Of a stretch of DNA of 47,325 nucleotides, positions 1,915 through 32,129 are shown piece by piece. Under the pieces are notes generated by a model. That model was not told where the DNA came from, did not search any database, and saw only the letters and a list, made by a program, of their open reading frames with translations. The position numbers and the translations under genes are program-made. This DNA is from an uncultured Gammaproteobacteria bacterium. Lineage in GTDB: Bacteria; Patescibacteriota; Patescibacteriia; 2-01-FULL-39-33. The number at the start of each line of letters is the position of its first letter. Position 1 is the stretch's first letter. The stretch is from contig CAZLFP010000006.1 of NCBI GenBank assembly GCA_964558935.1, positions 1-47,325 of the forward strand, read 5' to 3'.

Positions 1915-2712
1915 TTAGACTTCTAGAATTTTTTTGGAGGCCATTAAACTTAAAGTACCGGCATATCTGCCTTTGCCCAAGAAAATCGGGTAAAAATCCT
2001 TGTCAGACTTAATCTGTTTTCTGTTGGCTGTACCTATTTTCTGACCCTTTGCAACCAATTTAAAATCTTTTAATTCTTTACTGGGCGTGAACTTATCTGA
2101 TACCTTGTAAATGTCAAAAATGGTGTATAGATCTTTGTTGGGGTAGGTGGTTTGCTGACCTTTTAAGACTCCCAGATTTCTTAAGATGGTTTTAACGTCT
2201 CTAACCGCTCTAGGATAATTACTCCCGGTTTTATCCGGACCGTATTCCAAAGCAAGGCCGGCTTTCACACTACCGATTAAAAAATTACCCTCACCAAAAA
2301 CCCTTTCTCTAGCCAGCATAACTTTCTTAATGGGAGTTATTCTTAATAACTGTTTGGTTTTGGAATTTAAATTAGTGATAACTGCAGCTTTATCAAAATT
2401 GGAATTGGTGGCATGAATGTCGATAACAATGTCAAAGTCTTTCAGTTCTTGTTTTAATTTGTAAGCCACCAAGTCTTCATGTCTGCCATTAGCTTTGCCG
2501 GGGAAAGCTCGATTCAAATCTTTTTGTATAAACCTTTTATTCAATTTAATGGCCGGTAGGTTGCCTAAAAAGAAAGCAATTAAGCCTTTCTCGTATTTTA
2601 AAGTTGCCAGTTTATCGATAACTTTCTGTCCAATAATTTCATCACCATGAACGCAACCCACAATGGCGATTTTAGGCTGGCCTTGTCCCAGTTGGTTGAT
2701 TTGATGTTTCAT
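1915..2712 (-). CDS. succinylglutamate desuccinylase/aspartoacylase (AstE/AspA) family zinc deacylase
   Basis: GCVHGDEIIG, DLNRAFPG and DIHAT motifs typical of the AstE/AspA branch of M14-like hydrolases. Confidence 0.75.
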   Translation of the reverse strand: MKHQINQLGQGQPKIAIVGCVHGDEIIGQKVIDKLATLKYEKGLIAFFLGNLPAIKLNKRFIQKDLNRAFPGKANGRHEDLVAYKLKQELKDFDIVIDIHATNSNFDKAAVITNLNSKTKQLLRITPIKKVMLARERVFGEGNFLIGSVKAGLALEYGPDKTGSNYPRAVRDVKTILRNLGVLKGQQTTYPNKDLYTIFDIYKVSDKFTPSKELKDFKLVAKGQKIGTANRKQIKSDKDFYPIFLGKGRYAGTLSLMASKKILEV

Positions 2713-2718
2713 TGTTTA

Positions 2719-2747
2719 ATTATAGCTAAATAGTTTGAGTTTACAAA
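2719..2747 (-). promoter_or_regulatory. promoter of the deacylase gene (leaderless layout)
   Basis: minus strand TTGTAA -16 nt- TATAAT, 6 nt, ATG at 2712. Confidence 0.4.
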
Positions 2748-2751
2748 GAGG

Positions 2752-2778
2752 AGAGCGCGAGCTTAAAACTCGCGCTCT
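2752..2778 (-). terminator. 10-bp GC-rich hairpin after ligase A
   Basis: AGAGCGCGAG-CTTAAAA-CTCGCGCTCT; only a weak U-rich tail on the minus strand. Confidence 0.5.
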
Positions 2779-2781
2779 AAT

Positions 2782-3576
2782 TCAGTTCTTGGCGGCTTCA
2801 CGGCAGATAATCAGGCAGAGTTTAGCCCAATTGACCATCAGCCGGATGTCGTCAGTCGTGTCAAACATCCTAAATTCGATCGCTCCATACTTGGAGATGC
2901 GAATCATGTCCCACCACATACCCAGATCCCGCTCAAACTGTTCGGTTCGAGCTCGCTGGTACAATCCGTGCAAATTGCGACAGGGAATCAGCTGAGGCGT
3001 GCGCTGGACATGCTGTTCAAACAGATGAACACGCTGACCCTGGCTGAAACTACCGATATCCACCAGATGATCGTAATGATCGATCAGGCGATCATAAACT
3101 CGGATAGCCGTTTTCAGATCCGGCATGCCAATTAGAATGTGGACGCTGGAGAGACGCCTAACCATGTCTCGACCGGCTTCAGACAGCCAGTTATTGGCAA
3201 TGTCTAGGTAGCGAGGATGATCTACGATCTGAGTCGGAATATCCGGTGGAGCAATCGGCCAGAAAACACGCTTAACTCCGACCGCTTGTTCCATTTCACC
3301 GGCCATCGCATCTATCTGTTTAATAGCTGCTTCCAACTCATGGCTCGAGCAGGGCTGAGCCAAACGTTCTTCAAAATGACTGACGTTGAATTCCGGTCCG
3401 AAGCAGTGCGACAGGCCATTGCAATGATGCATAACCCAGTCCATAACTGAGTCAATAGCTGGTACAGCTTGGTTGGTGGTTGGGTTAACCAGCTGGGATT
3501 CGCGTTCCCAGCCGATCTTCCAGGCATGATGGGGTTGAAACTGGAATTGTTCCACAAATCTTGTGATCTCTTTCAC
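2782..3576 (-). CDS. short GCS2/amidoligase-like carboxylate-amine ligase (glutamine-synthetase fold), paralog A
   Basis: GTG start 5 nt after GGAGG. KIGWERE, EER, VHILIGMPD and GAIEFRMFDTT resemble the G-x-E-x-E, HVHVG and T-x-E-x-R-x-x-D motifs of YbdK/GCS2-type ligases. About 100 aa shorter than YbdK. GC higher than the flanks. Confidence 0.55.
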   Translation of the reverse strand: MKEITRFVEQFQFQPHHAWKIGWERESQLVNPTTNQAVPAIDSVMDWVMHHCNGLSHCFGPEFNVSHFEERLAQPCSSHELEAAIKQIDAMAGEMEQAVGVKRVFWPIAPPDIPTQIVDHPRYLDIANNWLSEAGRDMVRRLSSVHILIGMPDLKTAIRVYDRLIDHYDHLVDIGSFSQGQRVHLFEQHVQRTPQLIPCRNLHGLYQRARTEQFERDLGMWWDMIRISKYGAIEFRMFDTTDDIRLMVNWAKLCLIICREAAKN

Positions 3577-3707
3577 GACTTCCTCCTATGTTGTTTAAGA
3601 CCAAGGGTGAGGTGTAATTACCTCAGACATATTCTTGATGTATAAATTAAGTTAGTAACTGGTCGATTAACCTAAATTCATTAAGAATATGTCTTAAGTA
3701 ATTAAAC

Positions 3708-3731
3708 AAAAAACTGACCCGGGTAGATCAG
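3708..3731 (-). terminator. intrinsic terminator of the Ile attenuator
   Basis: minus-strand RNA CUGAUCU-ACCC-GGGUCAG followed by UUUUUU (3713..3708), inside the 5' leader of ligase A. Confidence 0.6.
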
Positions 3732-3760
3732 TCGCGCTTGTAAAATTAAGACTAACCAAT

Positions 3761-3814
3761 CTACCTAAGATCAGGAATAATAATGTTAATAATAATTTGG
3801 TTAGCTTGTAACAT
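3761..3814 (-). CDS. leader peptide MLQANQIIINIIIPDLR (6 Ile codons)
   Basis: ATG 6 nt after a TATAAT box; 17 codons containing ATTx3-AAC-ATTx3; stop lies inside an antiterminator segment. Confidence 0.6.
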   Translation of the reverse strand: MLQANQIIINIIIPDLR

Positions 3815-3820
3815 AATTGT

Positions 3821-3848
3821 ATTATACCTTAAATCTGGGACTTGTCAA
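3821..3848 (-). promoter_or_regulatory. promoter of Ile leader / ligase A
   Basis: minus strand TTGACA (3848..3843) -16 nt- TATAAT (3826..3821). Confidence 0.6.
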
Positions 3849-5214: not shown

Positions 5215-5243
5215 TTGACAGATTATAATTCTTAGATTACAAT
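5215..5243 (+). promoter_or_regulatory. promoter of the aromatic leader / pheA operon
   Basis: TTGACA -17 nt- TACAAT, 9 nt before the leader ATG. Confidence 0.6.
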
Positions 5244-5252
5244 TTAAATACA

Positions 5253-5315
5253 ATGAAAAAAATACATACAAACAATTGGTTTAGCTTTTATTTTACTGAC
5301 TGTATAGCCAGCTAG
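5253..5315 (+). CDS. leader peptide MKKIHTNNWFSFYFTDCIAS (W-F-S-F-Y-F)
   Basis: 20-codon ORF with 5 aromatic residues in a 6-codon stretch, stop inside the antiterminator stem, upstream of pheA. Confidence 0.65.
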   Translation: MKKIHTNNWFSFYFTDCIAS

Positions 5316-5342
5316 TTTTGTGTATATTGAGTAAAGAAGACT

Positions 5343-5367
5343 AACTGGCTGAAAGGTCGGTTTTTTT
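5343..5367 (+). terminator. attenuator terminator upstream of pheA
   Basis: AACTGGC-TGAAAG-GTCGGTT plus T run. Its 5' arm can instead pair with 5306-5318 (13-nt antiterminator with one mismatch and one wobble). Confidence 0.6.
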
Positions 5368-5384
5368 AATCATAAATAAGTATT

Positions 5385-5945
5385 ATGAAAATTGGAGTTT
5401 CCGGTGGTCCGGGCAGCTTCTCTGAAGAAGCGGCTGACTATTACTGCCATAAAAATAAATTGGCAGGTTATGAAATTAAGCATTTAATTTCCGTGGAAAA
5501 TGTTTTGCAAGCTTTGGAAAAAGATGAAATAGATATGGGGGTTTTTCCCATTGAAAATTCCAATGGTGGTATTGTGTATGAGGCAGTCTATGCCATGAGT
5601 CAGCATTTGTTTACAATCCAAAATCTGTTTGAAATAGATATTCGGCACAATCTCATTGCCCATCCTGAAGTTAATAAACAGGATATTACTTTAATTGCTT
5701 CTCATGACCAGGCTCTTAAACAGTGTAAGATGTATTTGAGAAGAGTTTGGCCAAAGGTGGAGATTAAGGAATGGGCAGATACGGCAGATTCTGTCAGAGC
5801 GATCAAAGACGGAGAACTGCCCAAGACTGCAGCCGGTATAGCTTCCAAAAAAGCGGCCGATCTGTATGGCATGCAGATTCTAGAAGAAGGTATCCAGGAT
5901 CTTAAATTCAATTTCACCACTTTTTTAGCGGTGACTAAGCAATAA
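5385..5945 (+). CDS. pheA: prephenate dehydratase domain protein (no ACT domain)
   Basis: GGPGSFSEEAA, PIENSNGG and SHDQALKQC motifs; ends right after NFTTF, where canonical PDTs have TRF. Confidence 0.75.
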   Translation: MKIGVSGGPGSFSEEAADYYCHKNKLAGYEIKHLISVENVLQALEKDEIDMGVFPIENSNGGIVYEAVYAMSQHLFTIQNLFEIDIRHNLIAHPEVNKQDITLIASHDQALKQCKMYLRRVWPKVEIKEWADTADSVRAIKDGELPKTAAGIASKKAADLYGMQILEEGIQDLKFNFTTFLAVTKQ

Positions 5946-5949
5946 TCAT

Positions 5950-6690
5950 ATGAAAATCGCAATCGTTGGCTTTGCCCGTTTCGGGCAGTTATGGGCCGAT
6001 TTAATGAAACAATTCGGACAAGTTATGGTTTTTAACCGATCTGACAAAGCTGATTTGGCTCAAGGTATGGAATTCTATACTTTTGACCGATTAGATAAAA
6101 TACAGGAGGCAGATTATATCTTTTGTTGCGTGGCTATGTCGGCCACTTTGGAAACTTTGGAAAGAATCAAGCCTTTTGTTAAAGATGGAGTAGTGGTTAT
6201 GGATGTATGCTCAGTTAAGGTTTTGCCTTGCCAATGGTTGGAAGAAGTTTTTGGTTCTGAAGCGGATCGGATAGAGATTATGGGGACTCACCCCATGTTC
6301 GGACCGGACAGTGCCAAAACTGGTTTAACAGATAAACAAATGGTATTGTGTCCTTTAAATATTAGTCAGGATAAGCTAGACTTTGTAAAAGGTATTTTTA
6401 ATGAATTGAAACTTAAAATTATCCAAACTACGCCTCAGGATCATGACCGACAGACAGCTTACAGTCTGGCCTTAGTTCATTATTTGGGGCGCGGCTTGGA
6501 TAGGCTGGATTTGGATTCCATTTACATTACCACGCTGGGCTTTGACCGCTTATTGGAAATTCACGGTAATGTGGTTAATGATTCCCAAGAGTTGTTTAAT
6601 GATTTGGAAAAACTGAATCCGTACGCTCAAGCTGCGAGACAGAAGTTAAGACAAGTTTTGGATGATCTGGAAACGGATCTAAACGGTTAG
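5950..6690 (+). CDS. tyrA: prephenate/arogenate dehydrogenase
   Basis: N-terminal Rossmann IAIVGFARFG, catalytic-region GTHPMFGP. Confidence 0.7.
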   Translation: MKIAIVGFARFGQLWADLMKQFGQVMVFNRSDKADLAQGMEFYTFDRLDKIQEADYIFCCVAMSATLETLERIKPFVKDGVVVMDVCSVKVLPCQWLEEVFGSEADRIEIMGTHPMFGPDSAKTGLTDKQMVLCPLNISQDKLDFVKGIFNELKLKIIQTTPQDHDRQTAYSLALVHYLGRGLDRLDLDSIYITTLGFDRLLEIHGNVVNDSQELFNDLEKLNPYAQAARQKLRQVLDDLETDLNG

Positions 6691-6709: not shown

Positions 6710-7879
6710 ATGGATATTCGCAGGGATCACATGCCGCCTTCATTGTTGCAAGAGTATGCAATTAAGGCCGGTCAAGAAGGAGTTGTTAGTTTGGCGATTG
6801 GGCAATCTGAAATGGAGCCACCTTCAGGATTGCTTAACCTAATCGTAGAGTACATTGTCAGAAAAGGCTATGCCCGTTACACGGCAGCGGTTGGAGATCG
6901 AGATGTCAGAAGCAAGTTGGTAGAACTTTTCAGCCGTCTGGGTGTTAAGGATTTGAATGTTGACCAAATAGCTATGAGTCACGGAGCCAAGCTACTGTTG
7001 GACGTATCCATGCGAGCCATGGCTGACATTGACGATGTGGTGATTTGGTTTTCCCCCGGCTATACTTACGGACGAACTGCCAAGCATAACCGAATTGAAT
7101 CCATCTGTTTGCCGACTGCAGATCATGGCTTCCGACCCGATCTGGAAGCTTTGAGCCGAGTGTTGGAGGATTTACCGGCTTGGAAAAAACCGATTGTCAT
7201 CGTTAACAATCCGGTTAATCCGACCGGTTGTGTCTGGCAAAAAGATGAACTTCAAGCTTTGGTGGAAATTCTGGCCAAGTACCGGGCCAAGGTGATTACG
7301 GATGAAACTTATGCTGATCTGGTTTTGGACGGTCCACCGATTACCTGTCTGGGTTCTTTTGATGACATTAGCGATCAAACCATTGTAATCCGTTCCGGTT
7401 CCAAAGAATTAAGAGCTCCGGCTTACCGGATTGGTTACATGGCTGTTCCTTTAAGCTACATGCCAAGAGTCAAGGACATTTTAAACGATTGTGTTGGCTG
7501 TCCTAATCTGTTGGCCAGACTGTCGGCTCCTTTCCTGTTGGAGCATCAAAGGTTCGCTCAGGAACAGTTGCCGGCTTTAAGAGCTAAATGTGGCTTGGTT
7601 GGAGAATGGTGCCGTCAGAATGGCCTGGTTCATGCTCCCATGGAAGGGGCTTTTTACAGCTTCATTGACTTTGATCCGATCTTGCAAGCCAAGGATTTTA
7701 AGGATACGATTGAATTGGCGGACCGCCTGCTGATTGAAGCCAAAGTCGGCATTATTCCGGGGCGAGCTTTCAGTTCGGCTCCCAAGCCGGATTGTGACAG
7801 CTGGGCCAGGATTTCCTTTGCCGGCGATAAGTTTGATTTGGTGGAGGGATTGGAGAGGATTAGCCGTTATATCGGCTGA
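6710..7879 (+). CDS. class I/II PLP-dependent aminotransferase
   Basis: NPVNPTG, SGSKELRAPAYRIGY (PLP lysine context); strong RBS AAGGAGG; GC above backbone. Confidence 0.8.
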   Translation: MDIRRDHMPPSLLQEYAIKAGQEGVVSLAIGQSEMEPPSGLLNLIVEYIVRKGYARYTAAVGDRDVRSKLVELFSRLGVKDLNVDQIAMSHGAKLLLDVSMRAMADIDDVVIWFSPGYTYGRTAKHNRIESICLPTADHGFRPDLEALSRVLEDLPAWKKPIVIVNNPVNPTGCVWQKDELQALVEILAKYRAKVITDETYADLVLDGPPITCLGSFDDISDQTIVIRSGSKELRAPAYRIGYMAVPLSYMPRVKDILNDCVGCPNLLARLSAPFLLEHQRFAQEQLPALRAKCGLVGEWCRQNGLVHAPMEGAFYSFIDFDPILQAKDFKDTIELADRLLIEAKVGIIPGRAFSSAPKPDCDSWARISFAGDKFDLVEGLERISRYIG

Positions 7880-7884
7880 AACTT

Positions 7885-7918
7885 GGTTGCTCCGGATCTG
7901 AAAAGATTCGGGGCAACC
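7885..7918 (+). promoter_or_regulatory. 15-bp hairpin right after the aminotransferase stop (no T run)
   Basis: GGTTGCTCCGGATCT-GAAA-AGATTCGGGGCAACC. Confidence 0.5.
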
Positions 7919-7937
7919 TCATATATAATTTAAAGAA

Positions 7938-7991
7938 ATGAAATATATAATTACAAATTGGTTTTTCTGGACTGATCATCCGGTCGGTTAG
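7938..7991 (+). CDS. leader peptide MKYIITNWFFWTDHPVG (W-F-F-W)
   Basis: 17-codon ORF. Homologous at DNA and peptide level to the 5253 leader (ACAAATTGGTTT, ACTGA). Its last codons CCG GTC GGT TAG form the antiterminator arm. Confidence 0.65.
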   Translation: MKYIITNWFFWTDHPVG

Positions 7992-8014
7992 TTTTTGAAA
8001 TATTTTTTTACTAC

Positions 8015-8037
8015 ACCGACCGTTTGGTCGGTTTTTT
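8015..8037 (+). terminator. attenuator terminator upstream of ligase B
   Basis: ACCGACC-GTTT-GGTCGGT plus T6. 8015-8022 can instead pair with 7981-7988 (8 Watson-Crick bp). Confidence 0.65.
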
Positions 8038-8107
8038 GTTTCCTGGTTTTGTCTTTTAATAGTTAAAAGGCAAAATGCGGCATCAAAAAAATGAGGAGGA
8101 ATCAAAC

Positions 8108-8911
8108 GTGCAGCAGTTCTTGGCTCTTTTCAATTTCAATCCGGATCATGCCTTCAAGGTAGGCGTTGAACGGGAATGTTTTCTAACCAAGAATGGTCAA
8201 ATTGTACCCATGGCTTTTGAAGTTCTAAGCCGGCTCAAGGCCAGTGTTAATGGACGGTCTCATTGCTATGGTTATGAGCTGTCGGCTTGTCAGTTGGAAG
8301 AGAGGACTTCCGGTCCGGTTATTCTGTCCGAGGTTGAAGCGGAATTGGAGCGTAATCATGAGGAGATTACGGCCATTTTAGAACCGCTTGGTTTAAAACG
8401 CTTATTTTGCGGAGCAGCACCCTTTGATGTACCATTGGATGTTTATCCGGACAAGCGTTACCAACGGATTACGTCTGATCAGTCGGTTGAATTTATCCGG
8501 GCGGCCTGTCGGGTGGCGGGTGTGCATATTCTAGTTGGCATGCCGGATGCTCAAACCGCCTTAAGGGTTTACAACCAAGTGATTCGGTATTTGCCTGAGC
8601 TGTTTGAATTGGGAGCTACGCCGGAGAGAATTGAAATCTACCGGCGCGCAGTACTCAAGAGTGAGCGTATTCAACTGTTTGAAGATTATCTGGTTGAAAC
8701 GTCTATTCCACCGGCTTACGCATCCTGGCAAGATTTTTACCACCGGGCAGTGGCAGATGGATTTGATTCTGACCCGCGTCGTTTGTGGGATTTCATTCGG
8801 ATTTCCAAGCATGGTGCCATTGAGTTTCGCACTTTTGACACCACTCAATCGATTCAACAAGTGCAAGATTGGGCCCATTACTGTTGGCAACTGTGTTTGA
8901 ACGCCGCCTAA
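8108..8911 (+). CDS. short GCS2/amidoligase-like carboxylate-amine ligase, paralog B
   Basis: GTG 8 nt after GGAGG preferred over the in-frame ATG 8075. Shares FxFxPxHAxKxGxERE, SHCxGxE, EER, VHILxGMPDxxTAxRVY and IRISKxGAIEFRxFDTT with the 2782..3576 protein. Confidence 0.55.
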   Translation: MQQFLALFNFNPDHAFKVGVERECFLTKNGQIVPMAFEVLSRLKASVNGRSHCYGYELSACQLEERTSGPVILSEVEAELERNHEEITAILEPLGLKRLFCGAAPFDVPLDVYPDKRYQRITSDQSVEFIRAACRVAGVHILVGMPDAQTALRVYNQVIRYLPELFELGATPERIEIYRRAVLKSERIQLFEDYLVETSIPPAYASWQDFYHRAVADGFDSDPRRLWDFIRISKHGAIEFRTFDTTQSIQQVQDWAHYCWQLCLNAA

Positions 8912-8915
8912 ATTA

Positions 8916-8948
8916 ACAGGAGATGATCTTGAGTCATCTCCTGTTTTC
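8916..8948 (+). terminator. intrinsic terminator
   Basis: perfect 11-bp stem ACAGGAGATGA/TCATCTCCTGT then TTTCTCTT. Confidence 0.7.
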
Positions 8949-32045: not shown

Positions 32046-32056
32046 ATATTTTGCAG

Positions 32057-32129
32057 TAGGCCAGGGTGGGATTGAACCACCGACCCCAACGTTATAAGCG
32101 TTGTGCTCTAACCCCTGAGCTACTGGCCC
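32057..32129 (-). tRNA. tRNA-Ile (anticodon UAU)
   Basis: Acceptor GGGCCAG/CTGGCCT (G1-U72), anticodon arm CAACG-CTTATAA-CGTTG, T arm GGTGG-TTCAATC-CCACC. Confidence 0.8.

What the first reader, a model, noticed from the sequence alone, without database searches (positions are those of the whole stretch)
7885..8037. Second, homologous aromatic leader attenuator placed in front of ligase B
ORF 7938..7991 encodes MKYIITNWFFWTDHPVG. It resembles the 5253 leader at both peptide level (T-N-W-F-x-F/W ... T-D) and DNA level (ATGAAA, ACAAATTGGTTT, ACTGA).

Its last codons, CGGTCGGT (7981-7988), pair perfectly over 8 bp with ACCGACCG (8015-8022). The same 8015-8021 segment is the 5' arm of the terminator ACCGACC-GTTT-GGTCGGT plus T6. 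The terminator 3' arm GGTCGGTTTTTT is identical to that of the pheA attenuator.

So a duplicated aromatic attenuator appears to have been recruited to control a ligase of unknown function. A 15-bp hairpin with no T run (7885-7918) separates it from the aminotransferase, so read-through from the pheA operon is possible. The TATAAT at 7924 has no good -35.
Basis: partly seen in the sequence, partly recalled or inferred. Interest (0 to 1): 0.8.

Follow-up and report, generated by a model that had tools for sequence, protein, structure and literature searches.

The report
Trp/Phe leader-peptide attenuator before orphan ligase
A short Trp/Phe-rich leader gene with switchable RNA hairpins sits in front of an uncharacterised glutamate-cysteine-ligase-like enzyme in a Patescibacteria-type (CPR) genome. 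The same enzyme family is controlled elsewhere by tryptophan T-boxes, so it appears to be switched on by aromatic (chiefly tryptophan) starvation.

Summary
ORF 7938-7991 encodes MKYIITNWFFWTDHPVG. Its last codons pair with 8010-8022. That stretch overlaps the 5' arm of a terminator (8015-8021/8026-8032 plus T6).

The element is conserved. All 16 distinct loci in the leader-bearing group (ligase 46-59% identical) carry a Trp/Phe/Tyr-rich leader ORF plus a terminator, usually with their own TTGACA/TATAAT promoter and in unrelated gene contexts. Cognate antiterminator pairing is stronger than non-cognate pairing (-21.2 vs -14.7 kcal/mol; 0 of 20,000 permutations reached it).

More distant orthologues replace the leader. 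In 47 of 59 loci a divergent T-box takes its place, with an invariant UGG (Trp) in the specifier position. Others have pure-Trp leaders (WW, WWLW).

The window holds three homologous attenuators:
- an Ile-rich one before a paralogous ligase A,
- an aromatic one before PDT-PDH-aminotransferase,
- this one before ligase B.

So this is a classical ribosome-mediated attenuator of a family absent from Rfam. Its link to the ligase is old, not a recent recruitment. Downstream leaders in tandem arrangements, including this one, lack a good -35, so read-through from upstream is likely. The ligase's chemistry remains unknown; it has a gamma-glutamyl-amine ligase fold.

The parts
7885..7918 (+). 15-bp stem-loop just after the aminotransferase stop codon (7877-7879). 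No T run follows. It occupies the place where a -35 would sit. Probably a leaky terminator or a stabiliser.
   Evidence: -26.7 kcal/mol, z -7.5. An analogous hairpin follows the aminotransferase in L107.
7924..7929 (+). TATAAT -10 hexamer, 8 nt before the leader ATG. This is the same geometry as the strong promoters of orthologous leaders, but here there is no -35 (best total 8/12).
7938..7991 (+). Leader ORF encoding MKYIITNWFFWTDHPVG*
   Evidence: Peptide-level conservation in orthologous loci.
7959..7970 (+). Regulatory codons TGG TTT TTC TGG (Trp-Phe-Phe-Trp)
   Evidence: W is present in nearly all ligase leaders.
7971..7977 (+). Segment 1, ACTGATC (Thr-Asp-His codons). It pairs with segment 2 as a 1:2 hairpin (-6.5 kcal/mol) or with segment 4 in untranslated RNA.
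7981..7992 (+). Segment 2, CGGTCGGTTAGT (last codons plus the stop codon TAG at 7989-7991). This is the 5' strand of the antiterminator.
8010..8022 (+). Segment 3, the 3' strand of the antiterminator. Positions 8015-8021 (ACCGACC) double as the terminator 5' arm.
8026..8037 (+). Segment 4, GGTCGGT, plus the T run (terminator 3' arm and U tract)
8093..8099 (+). GAGGAGG ribosome-binding site of ligase B, 8 nt before GTG 8108
8108..8911 (+). Ligase B: a 267-aa GCS2/YbdK-like carboxylate-amine ligase. This is the regulated gene.
8915..8945 (+). 13-bp terminator that ends the ligase B transcription unit
5215..5366 (+). Homologous attenuator 1. It comprises promoter TTGACA-17-TACAAT, leader 5253-5315 (MKKIHTNNWFSFYFTDCIAS*) and terminator 5343-5366. 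It lies before PDT (5385-5945), PDH (5950-6690) and the aminotransferase (6710-7879).
3705..3848 (-). Homologous attenuator 3 (isoleucine type). It comprises promoter TTGACA 3848-3843 / TATAAT 3826-3821, leader 3814-3761 (MLQANQIIINIIIPDLR*) and terminator 3733-3708. It lies before ligase A (3576-2782) and an AstE/AspA-like deacylase (2712-1915).

Best explanation
The element at 7938-8037 is a ribosome-mediated (leader-peptide) transcription attenuator. It makes expression of ligase B (8108-8911) depend on the supply of charged tRNA-Trp and tRNA-Phe.

**Shown from sequence and comparison.** A 17-codon ORF carries Trp-Phe-Phe-Trp at codons 8-11. Its last codons and stop codon (segment 2, 7981-7992) can pair with 8010-8022 (segment 3). 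Segment 3 overlaps the 5' arm of an intrinsic terminator (8015-8021 with 8026-8032, then T6).

**Inferred mechanism.**
- With ample Trp/Phe-tRNA, the ribosome runs to UAG (7989-7991) and covers segment 2. Segments 3:4 then form and transcription stops at about 8037.
- With scarce Trp- or Phe-tRNA, the ribosome stalls at 7959-7970. It covers segment 1 but leaves segment 2 free, so the 2:3 antiterminator (-16.1 kcal/mol, against -11.8 for the terminator) forms and RNA polymerase reads into the ligase.
- Untranslated RNA folds into a long nested 1:4 + 2:3 hairpin followed by the U tract (-30.1 kcal/mol). This should also terminate.
- The 1:2 hairpin (ACUGAUC/GGUCGGU) followed by UAGUUUUU may act as the pause site that couples transcription to translation.

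**Source of transcripts.** They probably come mainly by read-through from the upstream, separately attenuated PDT-PDH-aminotransferase operon, past the T-less hairpin at 7885-7918. A weak -10-only promoter (TATAAT 7924-7929) may add near-leaderless transcripts. If so, ligase B is gated twice.

**The regulated enzyme.** Ligase B has a gamma-glutamyl-amine ligase fold. Its regulation across the group marks it as part of a tryptophan/aromatic starvation response. Its substrates are unknown.
For: **Anatomy in the window.** Searches show the ORF, the terminator and the overlapping antiterminator; the fold has z = -4.27.

**Ribosome-position folding**.
- For this leader: stalled at F10 or W11, segment 4 is unpaired and 2:3 forms (-16.1). 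At the stop codon, the compact terminator forms (-11.8). Free RNA gives the long hairpin (-30.1).
- Across 15 family members: a ribosome at the stop codon gives the terminator in 15 of 15. A mid-run stall frees segment 4 in 11 of 15.

**Conservation.**
- All 16 distinct loci in the leader-bearing group (ligase 46-59% identical) carry a leader plus terminator, in unrelated contexts.
- These leaders use synonymous TTT/TTC codons and differ in flanking sequence, which argues for selection on the peptide.

**Alignment-free covariation**. Cognate segment 2:3 duplexes average -21.2 kcal/mol against -14.7 for non-cognate pairs; 0 of 20,000 permutations reached the cognate value.

**Promoters**. Scores of 10-12 out of 12 end 6-12 nt before the ATG in most first leaders. 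The downstream leaders of tandem arrangements (window L2, L107_2, L028b, L033b) score only 5-8 out of 12.

**Same regulatory logic by other devices.**
- T-box-like leaders stand upstream of more distant orthologues in 47 of 59 loci.
- They carry an invariant UGG in an unpaired 3' bulge, flanked by covarying helices; 11 of 13 pairs show compensatory changes.
- Pure-Trp leaders occur in L099, L079 and L035.
- tRNA-Trp genes lie next to three of these loci.

**Other points.**
- No promoter-like site lies between 8037 and 8108.
- Two more attenuators on the same scaffold are in the window, one with Ile codons before paralogous ligase A.
Against: - There are no transcript or expression data of any kind. 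All energetics are computed.
- Leader 2 has neither a Shine-Dalgarno sequence nor a good promoter. Its translation on a read-through transcript is therefore assumed, not shown.
- In 4 of 15 family members the thermodynamic model does not free segment 4 at the mid-run stall.
- MAFFT plus RNAalifold on 13 leaders recovers only the weakly covarying 1:4 pairing. Support for the 2:3 helix rests on per-sequence folds and the permutation test.
- The leader holds only four regulatory codons, of two kinds. The relative weight of Trp and Phe is not determined.
- It is not obvious why a ligase, which consumes an amine substrate, should be induced by starvation.
Confidence: 0.8

Rival explanations
1. Recent local duplication. 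On this view a pheA-type, phenylalanine-sensing attenuator was copied within this genome and placed in front of an unrelated ligase.
For: - The two window leaders share ATGAAA, AATTGGTTT, ACTGA and an identical 3' arm, GGTCGGTTTTTT.
- Both lie in one 3-kb stretch.
Against: - Ligase orthologues in many lineages have this leader without any pheA operon nearby.
- The window's pheA-operon leader (NNWFSFYFTD) is closer to the ligase leader of L037 (NNWFSFFFTD) than to the window's own leader 2.
- More distant orthologues use Trp T-boxes or WW leaders.
- L107 shows the same two-leader layout with diverged sequences, so the arrangement is inherited.
Confidence: 0.08
2. The hairpins are ordinary operon-end terminators and the 17-codon ORF is not translated. 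Any regulation would then act on RNA only, or through a protein (TRAP-like), or there would be none.
For: - Leader 2 has no Shine-Dalgarno sequence and no good promoter.
- The terminator at 8015-8037 could simply end the aminotransferase transcript.
Against: - A run of rare aromatic codons recurs at the same distance from the terminator in about 20 diverged leaders, with synonymous codon variation. The stop codon always lies inside segment 2.
- The same scaffold carries an Ile run before paralogous ligase A.
- The Rfam search found no known RNA-only element.
Confidence: 0.08
3. The leader is a TnaC-like arrest peptide. It would sense free tryptophan in the ribosome tunnel and induce the ligase when Trp is abundant.
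For: - Conserved W...(T/A)-D spacing is reminiscent of the W12/D16 of TnaC (from my own knowledge of TnaC).
- Trp is the common denominator of the family.
Against: - Termination here is intrinsic and has a competing antiterminator, rather than being Rho-dependent.
- There is no conserved Pro at the last codon.
- The ACTGAC (Thr-Asp) conservation is explained at RNA level by pairing with segments 2 and 4.
- Orthologues use T-boxes, which respond to uncharged tRNA. That implies induction by starvation, not by excess.
Confidence: 0.04

Closest known systems
E. coli trp operon leader (trpL) attenuator
   Same: - A short ORF with Trp codons.
- Four segments forming 1:2, 2:3 (antiterminator) and 3:4 (terminator plus U tract).
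- The stop codon is placed so that a terminating ribosome masks segment 2.
   Different: - No sequence or Rfam relationship.
- Mixed Trp/Phe codons.
- The -10 hexamer of family members lies 6-12 nt from the ATG, giving a near-leaderless leader mRNA.
- Untranslated RNA forms a nested 1:4 + 2:3 hairpin rather than 1:2 + 3:4.
- The target is not a biosynthetic trp gene.
- The host is a Patescibacteria-type (CPR) genome.
Phe_leader (Rfam RF01859; pheA/pheST leaders of gamma-proteobacteria)
   Same: - An aromatic codon run in a leader peptide upstream of an intrinsic terminator.
- One copy in this window precedes a prephenate dehydratase.
   Different: - It scores 17.6 bits against a gathering score of 55 (E 1.3).
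- A reverse-strand hit scores about the same, so this is a chance-level match and not a member.
Bacteroid-trp leader (Rfam RF01692)
   Same: A leader-peptide attenuator for an aromatic amino acid outside the Proteobacteria.
   Different: The window's leader 1 scores 24.3 bits against a gathering score of 49 (E 1.1). Leader 2 has no hit at all. Not a member.
T-box riboswitch (Rfam RF00230)
   Same: - It is the functional analogue.
- More distant orthologues of ligase B carry a T-box-like leader, with a Trp (UGG) codon in the specifier position, at the same place before the gene.
   Different: - The window's element has no T-box motif. It senses tRNA charging through translation.
- The T-boxes of the orthologues themselves score below Rfam's gathering threshold (28-45 bits against 93) and have a very short Stem I.
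YbdK / GCS2 carboxylate-amine ligases (PF04107; PDB 1r8g, 1tt4)
   Same: - The regulated protein matches PF04107 (34.7 bits against a cut-off of 21).
- Its AlphaFold model (pLDDT 89.9) matches YbdK at TM 0.71-0.74.
- The family alignment keeps near-invariant E21-R22-E23, invariant E57, E64, H140 and E239, and near-invariant R241.
   Different: - It is about 100 residues shorter.
- It has 15-16% identity to YbdK.
- It falls far below every NCBIfam equivalog cut-off (78.6 bits against 409).
- It forms a Patescibacteria-centred clade with amino-acid-specific regulation.

Membership tests
Ribosome-mediated (leader-peptide) transcription attenuators | A short ORF with a cluster of codons for the regulating amino acid(s) | tested here: met
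   The ORF is 17 codons with W-F-F-W at codons 8-11. Homologous leaders have 3-7 aromatic residues within 7 positions.
Ribosome-mediated (leader-peptide) transcription attenuators | An intrinsic terminator between the leader ORF and the structural gene | tested here: met
   A 7-bp G+C-rich stem at 8015-8032 followed by T6. It is 71 nt upstream of GTG 8108.
Ribosome-mediated (leader-peptide) transcription attenuators | An antiterminator that excludes the terminator, and whose 5' strand is masked by a ribosome at the leader stop codon but left free by a ribosome stalled at the regulatory codons | tested here: met
   Constrained folds. Pairing of 7981-7992 with 8010-8022. Cognate pairing beats non-cognate pairing; 0 of 20,000 permutations reached the cognate value.
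Ribosome-mediated (leader-peptide) transcription attenuators | Conservation of the ORF and of its regulatory codons in related genomes | tested here: met
   All 16 distinct loci in the leader-bearing group (ligase 46-59% identical) have such a leader.
Ribosome-mediated (leader-peptide) transcription attenuators | A 1:2 pause hairpin that couples transcription to translation | tested here: inconclusive
   A 7-bp ACUGAUC/GGUCGGU hairpin (-6.5 kcal/mol) followed by UAGUUUUU is predicted, and similar ones occur in most members. Pausing itself cannot be tested here.
Ribosome-mediated (leader-peptide) transcription attenuators | Termination and read-through that respond to the level of charged tRNA in vivo or in vitro | not testable with these tools
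   No transcriptome data or assay is available.
Rfam Phe_leader (RF01859) / Bacteroid-trp (RF01692) | A score at or above the family's gathering threshold | tested here: not met
   17.6 bits against 55, and 24.3 bits against 49. Nothing reaches the gathering threshold in the whole window.
T-box riboswitch (RF00230) - the window element | The T-box sequence (GGUGGNACCGCG) and a Stem I with a specifier loop | tested here: not met
   No T-box hit in 7850-8120 even at E up to 10.
T-box riboswitch (RF00230) - leaders of the more distant ligase orthologues | The T-box motif, a terminator, a Stem I with a codon plus a purine at the 3' end of an internal loop, and an Rfam score at the gathering threshold | tested here: inconclusive
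   The motif is present in 47 of 59 loci. Full-length RF00230 alignments were obtained in 8 of 8 loci tested, but at 28-45 bits against a gathering score of 93. An unpaired bulge ending in invariant UGG followed by G is flanked by covarying helices. The bulge base N in UGGN is C or U, which fits G73 of the tRNA-Trp genes nearby.
TnaC-type arrest peptides | Conserved W-x3-D-x7-P immediately before the stop codon, together with Rho-dependent termination | tested here: not met
   There is no conserved terminal Pro: the leaders end in VG*, AS*, RG*, IS*. An intrinsic terminator is present. The TnaC features listed are from my own knowledge.
GCS2/YbdK carboxylate-amine ligases (the regulated gene) | A Pfam PF04107 match and a glutamine-synthetase-type fold with conserved acidic and His residues | tested here: met
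   (34.7 bits against 21). (TM 0.71-0.74 to 1r8g/1tt4). Conserved E/H/R columns.
GCS2/YbdK carboxylate-amine ligases (the regulated gene) | Orthology to a characterised enzyme (NCBIfam equivalog cut-off), or demonstrated gamma-glutamyl ligase activity | tested here: not met
   The best NCBIfam score is 78.6 bits against a cut-off of 409. Activity cannot be tested here.

The most novel reading that the evidence does not exclude
Patescibacteria may carry a set of small GCS2-like ligases that are each specific for one amino acid, usually paired with an enzyme able to cleave a gamma-glutamyl or N-acyl amide.

**The paired enzymes seen:**
- AstE/AspA-like deacylase
- Ntn amidotransferase-like hydrolase
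- gamma-glutamyl cyclotransferase
- C26 gamma-glutamyl hydrolase
- M20 peptidase

**The regulation seen.** Each ligase is switched on by starvation for its own amino acid, through interchangeable devices:
- Trp/aromatic: a Trp T-box, or WW / WFFW leaders.
- Ile: an IIINIII leader before ligase A in this window.
- Tyr: a YYYYAY leader before a second GCS2 gene in L099.

**What it would mean.** These ligase-hydrolase modules would be an unrecognised route by which ultra-small, biosynthesis-poor bacteria acquire, trap or salvage individual amino acids. One possibility is an ATP-driven route resembling the gamma-glutamyl cycle. The modular attenuator scaffold with swapped sensing codons would be their regulatory signature.
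Probability: 0.35. Interest if true: 0.85.

Novelty: new member of a known kind. Interest (0 to 1): 0.62.

Why it matters
1. **Regulation in CPR bacteria.** Patescibacteria-type (CPR) genomes use classical leader-peptide attenuation. They use one modular scaffold whose sensing codons are swapped between operons. The full-text searches found no paper on this, and Rfam has no model for it.
2. **A functional label for an orphan enzyme.** Three independent sensors of tRNA charging converge on one GCS2-like ligase family: aromatic leaders, pure-Trp leaders and Trp T-boxes. This turns 'hypothetical protein' into a testable claim about tryptophan/aromatic starvation. Paralogues labelled Ile and Tyr offer built-in specificity controls.
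3. **Amino-acid supply in CPR bacteria.** These bacteria are thought to depend on hosts for amino acids. Starvation-induced ligase-hydrolase pairs could therefore bear on how they obtain them.
4. **A divergent T-box class.** It uncovers Trp T-boxes with a very short Stem I that current Rfam thresholds miss.

Tried and rejected
- **Genome-contig scan with ligase B.** It returned only distant actinobacterial homologues (26-36% identity).
- **Rfam.** No family reaches its gathering score. The Phe_leader and Bacteroid-trp hits are at chance level.
- **MAFFT plus RNAalifold on 13 leaders.** The alignment puts the terminator arms out of register. It recovers only the 1:4 pairing, with little covariation. 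I therefore used per-sequence constrained folds and an alignment-free permutation test in place of a covariance model.
- **Search for homologues of ligase A.** It found only the window's own protein and two aromatic-type relatives. Whether ligase A orthologues carry Ile leaders or Ile T-boxes could not be tested.
- **TnaC-like sensing of free Trp.** Considered and rejected; see the rival explanations.
- **A Leu-rich ORF plus terminator in L030 (1785-1880).** It precedes an unrelated 158-aa protein and is not counted as a family member.
- **Literature searches.** Searches for leader peptides or T-boxes in Patescibacteria/CPR, and for T-box plus carboxylate-amine ligase, returned nothing. Only Iyer et al. 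2008 (PMC2588565) is relevant. It notes ligases of GCS2 size next to amidotransferase-like peptidases or AIG2-type cyclotransferases.
Full report
**Check of the observation**

- ORF 7938-7991 translates to MKYIITNWFFWTDHPVG*. The earlier leader, 5253-5315, gives MKKIHTNNWFSFYFTDCIAS*.
- CGGTCGGT (7981-7988) is complementary to ACCGACCG (8015-8022).
- The terminator scan lists ACCGACC-GTTT-GGTCGGT followed by TTTTT at 8015-8037.
- RNAfold of 7930-8040 pairs 7981-7992 with 8010-8022, nested inside a pairing of 7969-7978 with 8025-8034. The energy is -30.1 kcal/mol, z = -4.27, and 0 of 200 shuffles fold as well.
- The 7885-7918 hairpin has 15 bp (-26.7 kcal/mol, z -7.5) and no T run after it.
- TATAAT at 7924-7929 has no acceptable -35.
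- GGYCRGTTTT occurs exactly three times in the 47 kb (0.55 expected), each time as the 3' arm of an attenuator terminator.

**Gene context**

- Leader 1 precedes three genes: a short prephenate dehydratase (5385-5945), a prephenate dehydrogenase (5950-6690) and a class I/II aminotransferase (6710-7879).
- Leader 2 precedes an ORF that matches GCS2 (PF04107). Its likely start is GTG 8108, 8 nt after GAGGAGG.
- The closest database relatives of this ligase come from Falkowbacteria, Buchananbacteria, Microgenomates and 'Patescibacteria group' assemblies. The window therefore comes from a Patescibacteria-type (CPR) genome.
- The AlphaFold model is confident (pLDDT 89.9). Its best structural matches are YbdK (TM 0.71-0.74), plant glutamate-cysteine ligase, GshF, glutamine synthetases and gamma-glutamylmethylamide synthetase. 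All of these make gamma-glutamyl amides.
- The ligase is far below every NCBIfam equivalog cut-off. It is not an orthologue of a characterised enzyme.

**Conservation of the leader-ligase link**

I fetched contigs that encode ligase homologues and 80 further loci from metagenomes. Every distinct locus in the leader-bearing group (ligase 46-59% identical to ligase B) carries a short aromatic-rich ORF followed by a hairpin and a T run. It lies upstream of the ligase, or of a two-gene operon of GATase-I/Peptidase_C26 plus ligase.

| Locus | Leader peptide |
|---|---|
| L017 | MNYRINKINSWFFFFTDTEVG* |
| L022 | METIKSNNVFFFWYFTDLRG* |
| L023 | MKNHSSKFFSFWFFADPRASDFI* |
| L025 | MINIAQGNFFFWLNTDHLAIS* |
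| L037 | MLRTQFNNWFSFFFTDLRPVEFDLRA* |
| L072 | MIRIQANNWFFGFYFTDPRTS* |

Others are listed.
- The neighbouring genes are unrelated between loci.
- Most leaders have their own promoter (10-12 of 12 matches). Its -10 ends only 6-12 nt before the ATG, so the leader mRNA would be leaderless or nearly so.
- Contig L107 repeats the window's full layout with diverged sequences: leader 1 (MKQARITTNWYFFFNFTGKRSS*), PDT, PDH, aminotransferase, hairpin, leader 2 (MKIKIKTNNWWQFFFTEERFS*), ligase.
- Aromatic leaders also precede PDT operons in a Berkelbacteria contig and a Falkowbacteria contig.

The class therefore controls two kinds of target: the terminal Phe/Tyr pathway and this ligase.

**Evidence for the switch**

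- *Folding with the ribosome's footprint masked.* For leader 2:
  - stalled at F10 or W11, the 2:3 helix forms (-16.1 kcal/mol) and segment 4 is unpaired;
  - at the stop codon, the compact terminator forms (-11.8);
  - with no ribosome, the long nested hairpin forms (-30.1).
- *The family as a whole.* Among 15 members, a ribosome at the stop codon gives the terminator in 15. A mid-run stall frees segment 4 in 11.
- *Covariation without an alignment.* The segment 2 and segment 3 sequences differ greatly between loci. Each segment 2 nevertheless pairs best, or nearly best, with its own segment 3. Cognate duplexes average -21.2 kcal/mol and non-cognate ones -14.7; 0 of 20,000 permutations reach the cognate mean.
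- *The 1:2 hairpin.* ACUGAUC/GGUCGGU (-6.5 kcal/mol) followed by UAGUUUUU, with equivalents in most members, is a plausible pause site. That role is inferred.
- *Limits of the alignment-based method.* A MAFFT/RNAalifold consensus recovers only the 1:4 pairing, with little covariation. The 2:3 evidence is therefore per-sequence, not alignment-based.

**Where the transcripts come from**

- First leaders have strong promoters.
- The downstream leaders in tandem arrangements score only 5-8 of 12. These are window leader 2, L107 leader 2, L028b and L033b.
- No promoter-like site lies between 8037 and 8108.
- The simplest reading is that ligase B is the last gene of a read-through unit gated twice, by leader 1 and by leader 2. 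The perfect TATAAT, at the family's usual 8-nt distance from the ATG, may add a weak contribution.
- This reading needs leader 2 to be translated from an internal AUG without a Shine-Dalgarno sequence. That is not shown.

**Which amino acid is sensed**

More distant orthologues (40-48% identical) lack the leader. Instead they carry the T-box motif GGUGG[C/U]ACC[A/G]CG and a terminator in 47 of the 59 loci with enough upstream sequence.
- Rfam's T-box model aligns full-length in 8 of 8 loci tested, but below its gathering score (28-45 bits against 93; E from 7e-7 to 1e-2).
- RNAalifold on 35 Stem I segments gives two helices, with compensatory changes at 11 of 13 pairs. Between them lies an unpaired 3' bulge ending in an invariant UGG followed by G. 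This is the position of a specifier codon plus purine.
- The variable base of the T-box bulge (UGGN) is C or U. That fits a G73 discriminator, which the tRNA-Trp(CCA) genes next to three of these loci have. I assigned the anticodons and discriminator bases by reading the alignments.
- Other orthologues have pure-Trp leaders:
  - L099: ...TSWWTG...
  - L079: ...LAWWLWEN...
  - L035/L036: a single W on the same ACTGAC...GGTCAGTTTT scaffold.
- All 66 ligases from these loci are closer to ligase B than to the window's paralogue, ligase A.

Tryptophan is thus the common effector of the ligase B family. The window's W-F-F-W leader would respond to Trp and Phe.

**A third attenuator, and what it implies**

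On the minus strand, a 12/12 promoter (3848-3821) lies 6 nt before ORF 3814-3761, which encodes MLQANQIIINIIIPDLR*. A long hairpin and the terminator GACTGATC...GGTCAGTTTTTT follow.
- This element precedes a 264-aa protein that has no Pfam hit but is 35% identical to ligase B (E 5e-53).
- An AstE/AspA-like deacylase follows that protein.
- The scaffold is the same and only the sensing codons have changed.
- In L099, a YYYYAY leader plus terminator precedes a second, larger GCS2-family gene.

Across 63 loci, the genes next to the ligase are non-homologous enzymes, most of which can cleave gamma-glutamyl or N-acyl amides:

| Neighbouring enzyme | Loci |
|---|---|
| AstE/AspA-like deacylase | 26 |
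| Class-II amidotransferase-like (Ntn) | 7 |
| GGACT/AIG2 gamma-glutamyl cyclotransferase | 6 |
| GATase-I/Peptidase_C26 | 5 |
| M20/M42 peptidase | 5 |
| GNAT acetyltransferase | 5 |

Similar neighbourhoods for ligases of GCS2 size were noted by Iyer et al. 2008 (PMC2588565).

My inference, with low confidence, is that these are amino-acid-specific ligase-hydrolase modules induced by starvation for their cognate amino acid. The chemistry, and why a ligase helps under starvation, remain open.

**Comparison with known systems, and verdict**

- The mechanism is the classical trpL/pheL type.
- Membership of any Rfam leader family was tested and failed.
- The full-text searches found no paper on leader peptides or T-boxes in Patescibacteria/CPR.
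- I class the element as a new member of a known kind.
The link to the ligase is ancient rather than a recent recruitment. The family's effector is mainly Trp.
- The interest lies less in the attenuator itself than in the consistent regulatory label it puts on an orphan enzyme family of CPR bacteria.

Noticed in passing
window 1915-3848, minus strand: A third homologous attenuator with an isoleucine-rich leader (3814-3761, MLQANQIIINIIIPDLR*), a 12/12 promoter and a GGTCAGTTTTTT terminator. It precedes 'ligase A' (3576-2782; no Pfam hit; 35% identical to ligase B) and an AstE/AspA-like deacylase (2712-1915).
   Followed up: partly
L038-L106 (for example L045 2641-2874, L054 1065-1292): A divergent class of T-box leaders with a very short Stem I and an invariant UGG (Trp) in the specifier position. 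They lie upstream of ligase orthologues in 47 of 59 loci. All score below Rfam's gathering threshold, so standard annotation would miss them.
   Followed up: partly
L099 3848-3919 and 4082-5395: A tyrosine-rich leader (MNTKTHIATYYYYAYTSPQSRVV*) plus terminator upstream of a second, 437-aa GCS2-family gene. The same contig has a WW leader (2757-2831) before the ligase B orthologue, and an M20 peptidase upstream.
   Followed up: partly
L028 414-690; L033 427-730: Two aromatic leaders in tandem, each with its own terminator, in front of one ligase gene. L028a resembles the PDT-operon leader of L107, and L028b resembles its ligase leader. It looks as if the operon between them had been lost, or in the window's lineage inserted.
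   Followed up: no
window 5385-5945: The prephenate dehydratase is only 186 aa and has no ACT regulatory domain. Versions of about 188 aa are widespread and 60-85% identical across CPR lineages. No shikimate or trp genes lie in the window, so the source of prephenate is unclear.
   Followed up: no
window 32056-32129, minus strand: A tRNA-Ile with a UAU anticodon (ARAGORN). This is uncommon in bacteria, which usually read AUA with a lysidine-modified CAU tRNA.
   Followed up: no
L108 4600-4960; L109 4018-4636: Between the aromatic leader/terminator and the PDT genes lie G+C-rich inserts. They encode small Cys-rich proteins that look like zinc ribbons (CxxC motifs). Their function is unknown.
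   Followed up: no
L044 2426-2497, L084 2539-2611, L071 4627-4697: tRNA-Trp(CCA) genes lie directly beside T-box-regulated ligase genes in three unrelated contigs.
   Followed up: partly
L030 1785-1880: A leucine-rich short ORF (..ILGLLLVLL..) with a promoter and a strong terminator, upstream of a 158-aa internally repeated protein of unknown function. It may be another leader type, or it may be chance.
   Followed up: no
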